Shown: positions 48,115 to 51,922 of the stretch, piece by piece | Numbering within the stretch: the first letter of the stretch is position 1 | How the letters are laid out: every line of letters begins with the position of its first letter | The notes under the pieces: generated by a model | Told to the model about the DNA's origin: nothing | Seen by the model: only the letters and a program-made list of their open reading frames with translations | The model's database searches: none | Made by a program: the position numbers and the translations under genes | Assembly: GCF_055900595.2 (NCBI RefSeq) | Contig: NZ_CM148325.1 | Reading direction: 5' to 3' (one strand) | Length of the DNA: 64,000 nt

Positions 48115-50093
<1,979 letters not shown>

Positions 50094-50095
<2 letters not shown>

Positions 50096-51233
50096 GTCAG
50101 AGCCCCTCGATCTCAATCAGTTAGCGCAAAAAATTAAACAGTGGGGGCTGGAACTGGGCTTTCAGCAGGTAGGTATTACCGATACCGATCTCAGCGCGTC
50201 CGAGCCCAAACTGCAAGCATGGCTGGACAAACAATACCACGGCGAAATGGACTGGATGGCGCGTCACGGTATGCTGCGCGCCCGCCCCCATGAGTTATTG
50301 CCCGGTACGCTGCGCGTCATCAGCGTGCGGATGAATTACCTTCCTGCTAACGCTGCATTTGCCAGCACGCTGAAAAACCCCAAACTCGGCTATGTAAGTC
50401 GTTATGCGTTGGGCCGTGACTATCACAAACTTCTGCGCAACCGACTCAAAAAGCTTGGCGAGATGATTCAGCAACATTGTGTTTCGCTGAATTTTAGACC
50501 GTTTGTCGATTCTGCGCCTATTCTCGAGCGCCCGTTAGCTGAAAAAGCAGGTCTTGGCTGGACAGGTAAGCACTCACTTATCCTCAATCGCGAGGCCGGT
50601 TCGTTCTTCTTTTTAGGTGAATTACTGGTCGATATTCCGCTGCCCGTGGATCAACCGGTCGAGGAAGGATGTGGTAAATGCGTGGCCTGTATGACGATTT
50701 GCCCGACCGGCGCCATCGTCGAGCCATATACCGTCGATGCTCGCCGCTGTATCTCTTATCTCACCATTGAACTGGAAGGGGCGATCCCGGAAGAGCTGCG
50801 TCCATTGATGGGAAACCGTATTTACGGTTGCGATGACTGCCAGCTTATCTGCCCATGGAATCGCTATTCGCAACTCACTACAGAAGACGATTTCAGCCCG
50901 CGCAAACCACTACACGCACCGGAACTCATTGAGTTATTCGCCTGGAGTGAAGAGAAGTTTTTAAAAGTCACGGAAGGTTCGGCGATTCGCCGTATAGGTC
51001 ACCTGCGTTGGCTGCGTAATATCGCCGTGGCATTAGGCAATGCCCCCTGGGATAAAACGATTTTGACAGCGCTGGAAAGTCGTAAAGGTGAGCACCCACT
51101 TCTTGATGAGCACATAGCGTGGGCGATTGCGCAGCAAATCGAGAGGCGAAATGCGTGCGTCGTAGAGGTACAACTACCGAAAAAACAGCGTCTGGTTCGG
51201 GTGATTGAAAAAGGGTTACCGCGTGACGCCTGA
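50094..51233 (+). CDS. queG: Epoxyqueuosine reductase QueG
   Basis: 379 aa from ATG 50094 (MSEPLDLNQ...); 4Fe-4S ferredoxin Cys clusters (CGKCVACMTICP, CDDCQLICP). Confidence 0.92.
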
Positions 51234-51502
51234 TTCATCCACAGCTTGTGAATAAAAATAAAAACGCATTGCAATTCAAGGCGAATAAAATCGTCAAGTG
51301 ATCGACTCGACAAAACGAGATCTTAATTTTCAACCTATATATCAATAAGTTAAAAAAATACTATTCACCGTGCGAAGTTTCTTTGAAATTAAGATTACGA
51401 CATGAGGCTGTGGATAACTCTGTTTACAAGAGTTTGTCAGAGACAACAAAAACCAGCAATAACGCATCGCGTCGCTGTGGATATTTTATTGAGAGAAGAA
51501 TT

Positions 51503-51578
<76 letters not shown>

Positions 51579-51613
51579 TTGGGTGGTCTGTGCTTTGCAG
51601 CACTTTCAAATTT

Positions 51614-51689
<76 letters not shown>

Positions 51690-51846
51690 TTAATCTTCGT
51701 CTTTCGAACCGCTACTGCCTTGGCTGCCTTCACTCACCTTAGTCACTTACTTTTGTAAGCTCCCAAGGATTCGTTCAGTTGCCGCCTTGTCACAATTCGA
51801 AATACTGCGATTGGGTGGTCTGTGCTTTGCAGCACTTTTCAAATTT

Positions 51847-51922
<76 letters not shown>

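What the first reader, a model, noticed from the sequence alone, without database searches (positions are those of the whole stretch)
50093..50096. Divergent nnr and queG initiate from overlapping start codons on a shared CATG
The nnr ATG (minus strand, 50093-50095) and the queG ATG (plus strand, 50094-50096) overlap within the palindrome CATG, if the 515-aa and 379-aa forms are the real products. The 5' ends of the two mRNAs must therefore overlap extensively, which implies antisense interference or shared regulation.
Basis: seen in the sequence. Interest (0 to 1): 0.3.

Follow-up and report, generated by a model that had tools for sequence, protein, structure and literature searches.

The report
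Head-to-head nnr/queG start-codon overlap
Two real E. coli genes that point away from each other do share the four bases CATG as their start codons, and their messenger RNAs overlap, but all of this is already in the reference annotation and in published transcriptome surveys.

Summary
CATG lies at 50093-50096, the nnr ATG at 50095-50093 (-) and the queG ATG at 50094-50096 (+). RefSeq and MG1655 (b4167/b4166) annotate the same 2-nt overlap.

Both starts hold up in comparison across 30 Enterobacterales. All keep the CATG. All have a Shine-Dalgarno sequence (GAGGGG) 7 nt before the first nnr ATG. The downstream ATG (50080) is a start codon in only 15 of 30. queG has no conserved alternative start.

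Each gene's expression signals sit inside the other's codons:
- The queG extended -10 (TGgTATACT, 50054-50062) is built from rare nnr codons that are fixed in all 30 taxa.
- The nnr Shine-Dalgarno sequence and a -10-like TAAAAT (50496-50491) lie in the two most synonymously constrained stretches of queG.

Published K-12 data cover a junction with no differences from -52 to +102 of the queG ATG. They give a queG 5' end 24 nt upstream, an nnr 5' end 388 nt upstream, a 413-nt transcript overlap, RNase III-processed double-stranded RNA, and a listing among 16 divergent excludons.

No data I could reach show that the antisense overlap regulates either gene, and I found no direct mapping of the translation starts. 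Already known; low-to-moderate interest.

The parts
50093..50096 (.). Shared CATG: nnr ATG (50095-50093, minus strand) and queG ATG (50094-50096, plus strand) overlap by 2 nt
   Evidence: Sequence. RefSeq and MG1655 annotation. Kept in all Enterobacterales loci that have the two genes adjacent.
48548..50095 (-). nnr CDS (515 aa, NAD(P)HX epimerase/dehydratase), first gene of the nnr-tsaE-amiB-mutL-miaA-hfq... operon
   Evidence: ORF. Pfam YjeF_N residues 40-199 and Carb_kinase residues 258-496. Annotation. Operon description in PMC4161252.
50094..51233 (+). queG CDS (379 aa, epoxyqueuosine reductase)
   Evidence: ORF. Pfam QueG_DUF1730 and Fer4_16. Annotation. N-terminus collinear in 80 gammaproteobacterial loci.
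50103..50108 (-). nnr Shine-Dalgarno sequence GAGGGG, 7 nt before the first ATG; it is the antisense of queG codons Pro4-Leu5 (CCC CTC)
   Evidence: Sequence. A Shine-Dalgarno duplex of -4.5 to -12.2 kcal/mol in 30 of 30 taxa. queG codons 3-8 are the most synonymously constrained of 347 windows.
50078..50080 (-).
   Evidence: A start codon in only 15 of 30 Enterobacterales (ATG in 9), with a weak Shine-Dalgarno match, mostly -3.2 kcal/mol or weaker.
50054..50062 (+). queG extended -10 promoter element TGgTATACT, encoded by nnr codons Ser12-Ile13-Pro14 (AGT ATA CCA)
   Evidence: TGnTAnnnT lies 31-32 nt before the queG ATG in nearly all Enterobacterales, including those where nnr is displaced or missing (34 nt in one Xenorhabdus locus, 43 nt in Pseudescherichia after a 12-nt insertion). 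It is built from minority codons that are fixed in 30 of 30 taxa. nnr codons 9-14 are the most synonymously constrained of 354 windows.
50070..50093 (+). queG 5' UTR (about 24 nt, U-rich, with only a GG at 50086-50087 as a Shine-Dalgarno-like element), antisense to nnr codons 1-9
   Evidence: The boundary derived from the Conway RNA-seq study is 4392114 (U00096.2), which maps to window 50070. A queG-sense 22-nt read, UCAUUGUAUGGUCCGUCAUGUC, covers 50077-50098. nnr codons 2-7 rank fourth for synonymous constraint.
50491..50496 (-). -10-like TAAAAT of the distal nnr-operon promoter, inside queG codons 133-135; it includes the rare Arg codon AGA
   Evidence: It lies 8 nt upstream of the published 5' end 4391701 (U00096.2), which maps to window 50483. 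queG codons 130-135 are the second most synonymously constrained window. GGTCTAAAATTCAG is invariant in the 20 taxa from Escherichia to Mangrovibacter, but reads GAAAAT in five of the seven other taxa (Pantoea, Mixta, Brenneria, Budvicia, Pectobacterium).
50096..50483 (-). nnr 5' leader (about 388 nt), fully antisense to the first ~130 codons of queG
   Evidence: Values derived from the Conway study, reproduced in Table S1 of PMC7373196.
50070..50483 (.). Region transcribed on both strands (about 413 nt); a source of RNase III-processed double-stranded RNA
   Evidence: [quoted passage not shown] Listed as a divergent excludon in at least 50% of 58 transcriptomes.

Best explanation
This is a genuine head-to-head overlap of two real genes, and it has been kept for a long time. 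Nnr is translated from the first ATG (50095-50093). QueG is translated from the ATG at 50094-50096.

Because there is no intergenic DNA, each gene's expression signals are written into the other gene's codons. queG is transcribed from an extended -10 promoter (TGgTATACT, 50054-50062) made of nnr codons 12-14. This gives a leader of about 24 nt with a weak Shine-Dalgarno sequence. The nnr Shine-Dalgarno sequence (GAGGGG) is the antisense of queG codons 4-5. The nnr operon is transcribed from a promoter about 388 nt upstream, inside queG codons ~130-135.

The two promoters therefore face each other about 413 bp apart. The two mRNAs are complementary over that stretch, pair in vivo, and are cut by RNase III. 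These points are shown: by sequence and comparison here, and by published K-12 experiments.

The following is inferred. RNA polymerases should collide or occlude each other's promoter. Duplex formation should bury the nnr Shine-Dalgarno sequence and start codon together with the whole queG initiation region and its first ~130 codons. Expression of queG and of transcripts from the distal nnr-operon promoter should then be mutually antagonistic, as in a divergent excludon. queG would be the more exposed partner, because its coding region, and not only a leader, lies in the duplex.
For: Sequence and annotation.

Start codons:
- The CATG is kept, with nnr residue 1 and queG residue 1 abutting, in about 30 Enterobacterales taxa.
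- The nnr Shine-Dalgarno sequence is present in 30 of 30 taxa. Codon 6 is a start codon in only 15 of 30.
- The variable linker (nnr residues 5-11) stays in frame, including a 12-nt insertion in L012.
- queG has no conserved upstream start, and six taxa have an in-frame stop 9-24 nt upstream.

Embedded signals:
- The top-ranked synonymous-constraint windows fall on the predicted signals: queG codons 3-8 and 130-135, and nnr codons 9-14 and 2-7.
- The -10 uses minority codons. AGT makes up 5-36% of Ser codons, ATA/TTA 3-27% of Ile/Leu codons, and CCA 7-28% of Pro codons in these genes, yet they are fixed.
- Where the amino acid at the third codon varies (Pro, Ala, Ser; Thr in more distant gammaproteobacteria), the codon stays NCA, which keeps the TG of TGn.
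- The element persists at about the same distance where nnr is displaced or lost: Brenneria, Pectobacterium, Photorhabdus, Xenorhabdus.

Transcripts: three independent K-12 data sets give nearly the same boundaries, and 22-nt RNase III duplex reads span the CATG itself. The pair is a top-20 dsRNA cluster and is listed as a divergent excludon. The window shows no differences from K-12 between -52 and +102 of the queG ATG.
Against: No direct evidence for either translation start was reachable. The supplements of the ribosome-profiling and N-terminomics papers either do not mention these genes or are not held.

The transcript 5' ends come from RNA-seq coverage boundaries, not from dRNA-seq. The simple sigma-70 scan, which requires a -35 element, found no promoter.

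Synonymous conservation near the 5' ends of genes has other known causes, and the 30 taxa are not phylogenetically independent.

No data show that either gene's expression changes when the other's transcription changes. Overlapping 5' ends occur in 35% of divergent E. coli operons (PMC4161252), so overlap alone does not imply regulation.

The arrangement has been lost in at least three lineages without loss of queG. One metagenome-assembled genome (L020) carries a 1-nt insertion that leaves only the second ATG in frame.
Confidence: 0.75

Rival explanations
1. The architecture is real but has no regulatory role. The overlap is a frozen by-product of genome compaction. It is kept because any change at the junction would damage one gene's signals or the other's codons. 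The double-stranded RNA is harmless noise that RNase III clears.
For: 35% of divergent E. coli operons have overlapping 5' ends, and the authors themselves say conservation does not prove function. The overlap was lost in Brenneria, Pectobacterium and Photorhabdus/Xenorhabdus while the queG promoter was kept. The TAAAAT -10 of the nnr promoter is confined to Enterobacteriaceae, so the 413-nt overlap is younger than the CATG junction. No regulator site or RNA family was found.
Against: The cluster is among the 20 most abundant coding-gene dsRNA clusters in stationary phase, so the two RNAs coexist and pair at appreciable levels. The overlap was seen in at least 50% of 58 transcriptomes. The duplex covers both ribosome-binding regions, which should have consequences.
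Confidence: 0.4
2. In E. coli, Nnr is made mainly or partly from the second ATG (50080-50078, giving MKKNPV..., 510 aa). The coding sequences would then not truly overlap, and MTDHT would be untranslated leader conserved only for queG's sake.
For: E. coli and its close relatives do have an ATG at codon 6. Nucleotide conservation of codons 1-5 can be explained by the queG leader alone. The L020 MAG has only the second ATG in frame. Outside Enterobacterales, tblastn alignments of Nnr begin at residues 8-12. The Pfam domain starts at residue 40, so either form would be intact.
Against: Codon 6 is not a start codon in 15 of 30 taxa. The Shine-Dalgarno sequence is placed 7 nt before the first ATG in 30 of 30 taxa but would be 22 nt from the second. 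The frame from the first ATG is open in 30 of 30 taxa despite variable residues and a 12-nt insertion. In 11 taxa the first ATG is the only start between the upstream stop and the conserved S-[IL]-P-H motif. The tetracycline-profiling paper lists about 150 revised starts within 60 nt of the annotated ones, and yjeF is not among them.
Confidence: 0.1
3. queG starts elsewhere, either at the upstream GTG at 50049 (394 aa) or as a leaderless mRNA driven by the TATGGT at 50083-50088.
For: An in-frame GTG exists at 50049. TATGGT resembles a -10 element 5 nt before the ATG, and the queG Shine-Dalgarno match is weak at -2.2 kcal/mol.
Against: The GTG is not conserved (GAG and other codons in relatives), and six taxa have an in-frame stop 9-24 nt upstream. 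The published 5' end lies downstream of that GTG. The T and A of TATGGT are not conserved (GTTGGT, CCTGGT, ACCGGT). A queG-sense RNA read extends to 50077, so a leadered mRNA exists.
Confidence: 0.03

Closest known systems
Divergent excludon (overlapping 5' transcripts of neighbouring divergent genes; concept from Listeria, catalogued for E. coli by ExcludonFinder, PMC12288877)
   Same: The two neighbours are on opposite strands. A long leader of one (nnr, about 388 nt) is antisense to the other's mRNA. Double-stranded RNA forms and is processed by RNase III. This very pair is listed among the 16 divergent excludons of MG1655.
   Different: Here the coding sequences themselves abut and overlap, so there is no intergenic region at all. 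The reciprocal, mutually exclusive expression that defines a functional excludon has not been shown for this pair.
Head-to-head (divergent) overlapping protein-coding genes in prokaryotes
   Same: The two CDSs share nucleotides at their 5' ends. This is the rarest orientation class, with 2 of 663 overlapping pairs in E. coli (PMC4161906).
   Different: Many annotated divergent overlaps are suspected start-codon mispredictions. This one is backed by conservation of both starts and of the nnr Shine-Dalgarno sequence across an entire order.
Face-to-face (convergent) promoter pairs that cause transcriptional interference, such as coliphage 186 pR/pL (from my own knowledge, not checked here)
   Same: Two promoters fire toward each other, and each polymerase must read through the other promoter. 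Here they are about 413 bp apart.
   Different: Relative promoter strengths and any interference have not been measured here, and both transcripts encode housekeeping enzymes rather than a genetic switch.
Extended -10 (TGn) sigma-70 promoters
   Same: TGgTATACT fits TGnTAnnnT, the mapped 5' end lies 8 nt downstream, and there is no recognisable -35 element.
   Different: The element lies wholly within a coding sequence on the opposite strand, and its conservation can be read from codon choice. Promoter activity itself was not tested.

Membership tests
Head-to-head overlapping protein-coding genes | Both ORFs are genuine genes | tested here: met
   Pfam domains of Nnr and QueG score well above their cut-offs. 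Orthologues were found in 80 gammaproteobacterial loci. RefSeq annotates both.
Head-to-head overlapping protein-coding genes | The start codons that create the overlap are the ones supported by comparative evidence | tested here: met
   The CATG and the nnr Shine-Dalgarno sequence are kept in 30 of 30 Enterobacterales. The alternative nnr start is present in only 15 of 30. queG has no conserved alternative, and some taxa have upstream in-frame stops.
Head-to-head overlapping protein-coding genes | The start codons are shown directly, by initiation profiling or by an N-terminal peptide | not testable with these tools
   No accessible data set mentions either gene.
Divergent excludon | Adjacent genes on opposite strands that are transcribed divergently | tested here: met
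Divergent excludon | The transcripts overlap, so one mRNA is antisense to the other | tested here: met
   Published K-12 RNA-seq shows a 413-nt overlap, and the pair was seen in at least 50% of 58 transcriptomes. The window shows no differences from K-12 between -52 and +102 of the queG ATG. Both promoter elements are conserved.
Divergent excludon | Double-stranded RNA forms in vivo and is processed by RNase III | tested here: met
   This rests on the literature only: Lybecker dsRNA MS-212 and p19 cluster S-361, with paired 21-22-nt reads on both strands.
Divergent excludon | Expression of one gene lowers expression of the other (mutually exclusive expression) | not testable with these tools
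   I found no perturbation data. This is the feature that decides between regulation and a by-product.
Extended -10 sigma-70 promoter (queG) | A TG one base upstream of a TAnnnT -10 hexamer | tested here: met
   TGgTATACT at 50054-50062. TGnTAnnnT is present in all 34 Enterobacterales loci examined upstream of queG (L004-L037 and L043, apart from L038, whose queG start is not in the locus) and in most other gammaproteobacterial loci, against about 0.12 expected per 130 nt.
Extended -10 sigma-70 promoter (queG) | The transcript 5' end lies 6-9 nt downstream of the hexamer | tested here: met
   The published boundary maps to 50070, 8 nt after 50062. It is a coverage boundary, not a dRNA-seq start site.
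Extended -10 sigma-70 promoter (queG) | Promoter activity that depends on the TG motif | not testable with these tools
   This needs reporter fusions or in vitro transcription.

The most novel reading that the evidence does not exclude
The nnr/queG junction could be a selected control module that is older than the Enterobacterales. Very short or negative spacers and the embedded TGnTAnnnT are also seen in Tolumonas, Alteromonadales and Vibrionales loci. Writing each gene's promoter or ribosome-binding site into the other's codons would force reciprocal expression of queuosine tRNA maturation (queG) and the nnr-tsaE-amiB-mutL-miaA-hfq superoperon, linking two branches of tRNA modification and RNA metabolism through antisense RNA and RNase III.
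Probability: 0.2. Interest if true: 0.45.

Novelty: already known. Interest (0 to 1): 0.25.

Why it matters
The finding has three modest uses.

It is a clean, well-conserved example showing that a divergent overlap of start codons can be real rather than an annotation error.

It also shows how promoter and ribosome-binding signals can be read from codon choice in the gene on the other strand. Examples are the rare ATA and AGA codons fixed for a -10 hexamer, and an amino-acid position that is free to vary only among NCA codons.

Anyone who engineers or deletes nnr or queG should know that the first ~15 codons of nnr carry the queG promoter and leader. Likewise, the first ~135 codons of queG carry the nnr Shine-Dalgarno sequence, leader and distal promoter. 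Standard knockouts of one gene will therefore disturb the other and may disturb the downstream tsaE-amiB-mutL-miaA-hfq operon.

Whether the antisense overlap regulates anything is still open. It would be of moderate interest if it does.

Tried and rejected
- **Promoter and terminator scan, 49500-50700:** no hits. The scan requires a -35 element, so it misses extended -10 promoters; this says nothing against the promoters proposed here.
- **Rfam search, 49700-50800, at E-value up to 1:** nothing. The 388-nt nnr leader matches no known riboswitch or leader family.
- **Direct evidence for the translation starts:**
  - TRAINSPOTTER N-terminomics: no mention of either gene.
  - Retapamulin profiling preprint: no supplements held; the journal version is not held.
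  - Stringer 2021: not held.
  - Tetracycline-inhibited profiling tables: no entry for yjeF or yjeS, which I read as no revised start being reported.
  - Salmonella riboproteogenomics: no mention.
  - INRI-seq: only an irrelevant off-target entry for nnr.
- **Direct transcription start sites:** Thomason 2015 is not held. The Conway and ExcludonFinder supplements are not held as text. The Cappable-seq supplements have no matching coordinates. I therefore used the Conway boundaries as reproduced in Table S1 of the p19 paper.
- **Rejected: queG from the upstream GTG at 50049.** The codon is not conserved and lies upstream of the mapped 5' end.
- **Rejected: leaderless queG driven by TATGGT.** The T and A are not conserved, and a leadered RNA read exists.
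- **Rejected: nnr from the upstream TTG at 50116.** It is present only in some Enterobacteriaceae, and many taxa have a stop 6-24 nt upstream.
- **Rejected: TCGACA at 50509-50504 as the -35 of the nnr promoter.** The spacer would be only 7 nt.

Full report
**Observation.** The window is E. coli. It is 100% identical to strain Z0117EC0005 and about 95% identical to K-12 over 1 kb. The + strand reads ggtccgtCATGtcagag, with CATG at 50093-50096. The minus-strand ORF from ATG 50095-50093 encodes a 515-aa protein starting [15 protein letters not shown]. The plus-strand ORF from ATG 50094-50096 encodes a 379-aa protein starting MSEPLDLNQ. Pfam identifies them as Nnr (YjeF_N plus Carb_kinase) and QueG (DUF1730 plus Fer4_16). 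RefSeq/PGAP and the MG1655 reference (nnr 4394066..4395613; queG complement 4392928..4394067) annotate exactly this 2-nt overlap. CATG as a tetranucleotide is unremarkable, with 215 copies in the window against 249 expected. The configuration is what is rare: one survey counted 2 divergent overlaps among 663 overlapping adjacent pairs in E. coli (PMC4161906).

**Are these the real start codons?** I fetched 80 queG loci from one genome per species and located nnr in each by tblastn. In about 30 Enterobacterales taxa, from Escherichia, Citrobacter and Enterobacter to Pantoea, Serratia, Yersinia, Rahnella, Budvicia and Edwardsiella, queG residue 1 and nnr residue 1 abut on a CATG exactly as in the window.
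- **nnr, first ATG.** It is preceded by GAGGGG-like Shine-Dalgarno sequences at a 7-nt spacing in 30 of 30 taxa, with duplex energies of -4.5 to -12.2 kcal/mol.
It is ATG in 9, GTG or TTG in 6, and not a start codon in 15. The Shine-Dalgarno match there is weak.
- **nnr reading frame.** Residues 5-11 are variable, but the frame from the first ATG stays open in all 30, including a 12-nt insertion in Pseudescherichia. Upstream in-frame starts are absent in many taxa because a stop lies 6-24 nt upstream.
- **queG.** The upstream in-frame GTG (50049) is not conserved, six taxa have an in-frame stop 9-24 nt upstream, and the N-terminal sequence is collinear across Gammaproteobacteria.
- **Exception.** One metagenome-assembled genome (L020) has a 1-nt insertion that leaves only the second ATG in frame.

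I found no direct initiation-profiling or N-terminal proteomic evidence. The tetracycline-profiling study lists about 150 revised starts, and neither gene is among them.

**Signals written inside the partner's codons.** With no intergenic DNA, each gene's signals must lie in the other gene, and the conservation pattern shows where.
- **queG promoter.** On the + strand, TGgTATACT (50054-50062) fits the extended -10 pattern TGnTAnnnT. That pattern lies 31-32 nt before the queG ATG in nearly all Enterobacterales loci (34 and 43 nt in two of them), against about 0.12 chance matches expected per 130 nt. It is also found where nnr has been displaced (Brenneria, Pectobacterium) or lost (Photorhabdus, Xenorhabdus), and in most Vibrionales and Alteromonadales loci.
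- **Codon choice at that promoter.** In nnr the element is codons Ser12-Ile/Leu13-Pro14, written AGT-ATA/TTA-CCA in 27 of 30 taxa. Each is a minority codon in these genes: 5-36%, 3-27% and 7-28% of its synonymous family. Where the third residue varies (Pro, Ala, Ser, and Thr in more distant taxa), the codon stays NCA, which is what TGn requires.
- **Constraint in nnr.** A scan of synonymous-codon entropy ranks nnr codons 9-14 first of 354 windows. Codons 2-7, the queG leader, rank fourth.
- **Constraint in queG.** The same scan ranks codons 3-8, the antisense of the nnr Shine-Dalgarno sequence and spacer, first of 347 windows. Codons 130-135 rank second. They are the antisense of a -10-like TAAAAT at 50496-50491 that includes the rare Arg codon AGA. 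That TAAAAT is invariant from Escherichia to Mangrovibacter but reads GAAAAT in Pantoea, Mixta, Brenneria, Budvicia and Pectobacterium.
- **Within E. coli.** The 91-nt junction is at least 99% identical in 4717 of 5425 genomes, whereas the surrounding 1 kb reaches that level in only 13.

**Transcripts.** Published K-12 data apply directly, because the window shows no differences from K-12 between -52 and +102 of the queG ATG. Table S1 of the p19 study (PMC7373196) reproduces three data sets in U00096.2 coordinates. I verified the 1977-nt offset to U00096.3 against a read that spans the CATG.
- Conway RNA-seq: nnr-operon promoter at 4391701, overlap with the queG transcript to 4392114, 413 nt.
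- Lybecker dsRNA immunoprecipitation: MS-212, 4391717-4392100.
- p19-captured RNase III products: cluster S-361, 4391754-4392109.

In window coordinates the queG 5' end is about 50070, 8 nt after the extended -10 element, giving a 24-nt leader. The nnr 5' end is about 50483, 8 nt after TAAAAT, giving a 388-nt leader. Paired 22-nt reads (CAUGACGGACCAUACAAUGAAG and UCAUUGUAUGGUCCGUCAUGUC) cover the CATG on both strands, and another abundant read covers the nnr Shine-Dalgarno sequence. The cluster is among the 20 most abundant coding-gene dsRNA clusters. ExcludonFinder lists queG-nnr among the 16 divergent excludons found in at least 50% of 58 MG1655 transcriptomes, and lists yjeV-queG-nnr as a non-contiguous operon. 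Conway et al. describe the yjeF operon as the most complex in their data set. They also report that 35% of divergent operons have overlapping 5' ends, 168 nt on average.

**Mechanism.** Shown or strongly supported: both starts share the CATG, the queG promoter and leader lie in nnr codons 1-14, the nnr Shine-Dalgarno sequence, leader and distal promoter lie in queG codons 1-135, the promoters face each other about 413 bp apart, and the RNAs pair and are cut by RNase III. Inferred: polymerase collision or promoter occlusion. Also inferred: a duplex that buries both ribosome-binding regions and the first ~130 queG codons, making queG and distal-promoter nnr transcripts mutually antagonistic. The shared start codons do not themselves make ribosomes compete, because the two AUGs are on different mRNAs. 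'Shared regulation' has no support: no regulator site or RNA family was detected.

**Rivals.**
- The main open alternative (about 0.4) is that the arrangement is a neutral frozen consequence of compaction. Overlapping divergent transcripts are common. The overlap has been lost in several lineages while the queG promoter was kept. The long antisense leader appears younger than the CATG junction.
- Initiation of Nnr at the second ATG is unlikely (about 0.1).
- Alternative queG starts, or a leaderless queG mRNA, are very unlikely (about 0.03).

**Beyond Enterobacterales.** nnr and queG are often still divergent neighbours with tiny or negative spacers. Tolumonas and a gammaproteobacterial MAG have a CATG. 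Three Alteromonadales loci have CAATG, a 1-nt overlap if nnr uses TTG. Others have gaps of 3-86 nt, and two loci (Idiomarina and Aeromonas) have gaps of about 100-170 nt. The TGnTAnnnT element in the nnr 5' codons is again present. The head-to-head layout with the queG promoter inside nnr therefore seems ancient.

**Verdict.** The finding is real and correctly interpreted, but it is already annotated and already catalogued as an overlapping-transcript, dsRNA and excludon locus. What this analysis adds is comparative support for both start codons and a nucleotide-level map of the interleaved signals. Interest is low to moderate. The regulatory question is testable with synonymous promoter mutations.

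Noticed in passing
window 51216-51269 (-): The annotated 17-aa small ORF yjeV overlaps the 3' end of queG convergently by 18 nt. The literature lists yjeV-queG as a convergent excludon and yjeV-queG-nnr as a 'non-contiguous operon', so nnr-sense transcription may sometimes run antisense across the whole of queG.
   Followed up: partly
window 51503-51922 (-): There are three tRNA-Gly(GCC) genes. The spacer between the second and third copies is 157 nt in this strain but 36 nt in K-12, which implies an insertion of about 121 nt.
   Followed up: no
window 48548-48576 (-): The 3' end of nnr overlaps the annotated tsaE start (MMNRVIPL) by 29 nt on the same strand. The tsaE start was not evaluated.
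   Followed up: no
window 48986-49024 and 48905-48922 (-): nnr codons 358-370 and 392-397 are among the most synonymously constrained stretches of the gene. They may mark internal promoters or other signals for tsaE/amiB; Conway et al. report 8 promoters in this operon.
   Followed up: no
window 50084-50137 (+): The antisense of nnr His4 (CAT) puts an out-of-frame AUG in the queG leader, 14 nt from the mapped 5' end. It opens a 17-codon ORF across the queG start. It reads ATG in most Enterobacteriaceae but TTG, CTG or CCG elsewhere, and is probably not used.
   Followed up: no
L029 2354-2501; L032 1303-2501; L034 2329-2501: The overlap has been lost in three ways. Brenneria has a 146-nt spacer that still carries a relic of the junction (TGgTAAAAT, a T-rich leader and the CATG). 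Pectobacterium has a 293-aa ORF inserted between nnr and queG. Photorhabdus lacks nnr, and tsaE is directly divergent from queG; Xenorhabdus also lacks nnr upstream of queG.
   Followed up: partly
L020 2446-2504: A soil MAG has a 1-nt insertion between the -10 element and the CATG. It breaks the nnr frame from the first ATG and leaves the second ATG (MKKNPASIPH) as the only start. This could be an assembly error or natural evidence that the first five residues are dispensable.
   Followed up: no
L051, L061, L072 (near 2477-2482): Alteromonadales loci show CAATG at the junction. The only available nnr start is a TTG that shares one base with the queG ATG. This would be a 1-nt head-to-head overlap if the TTG is used.
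   Followed up: partly
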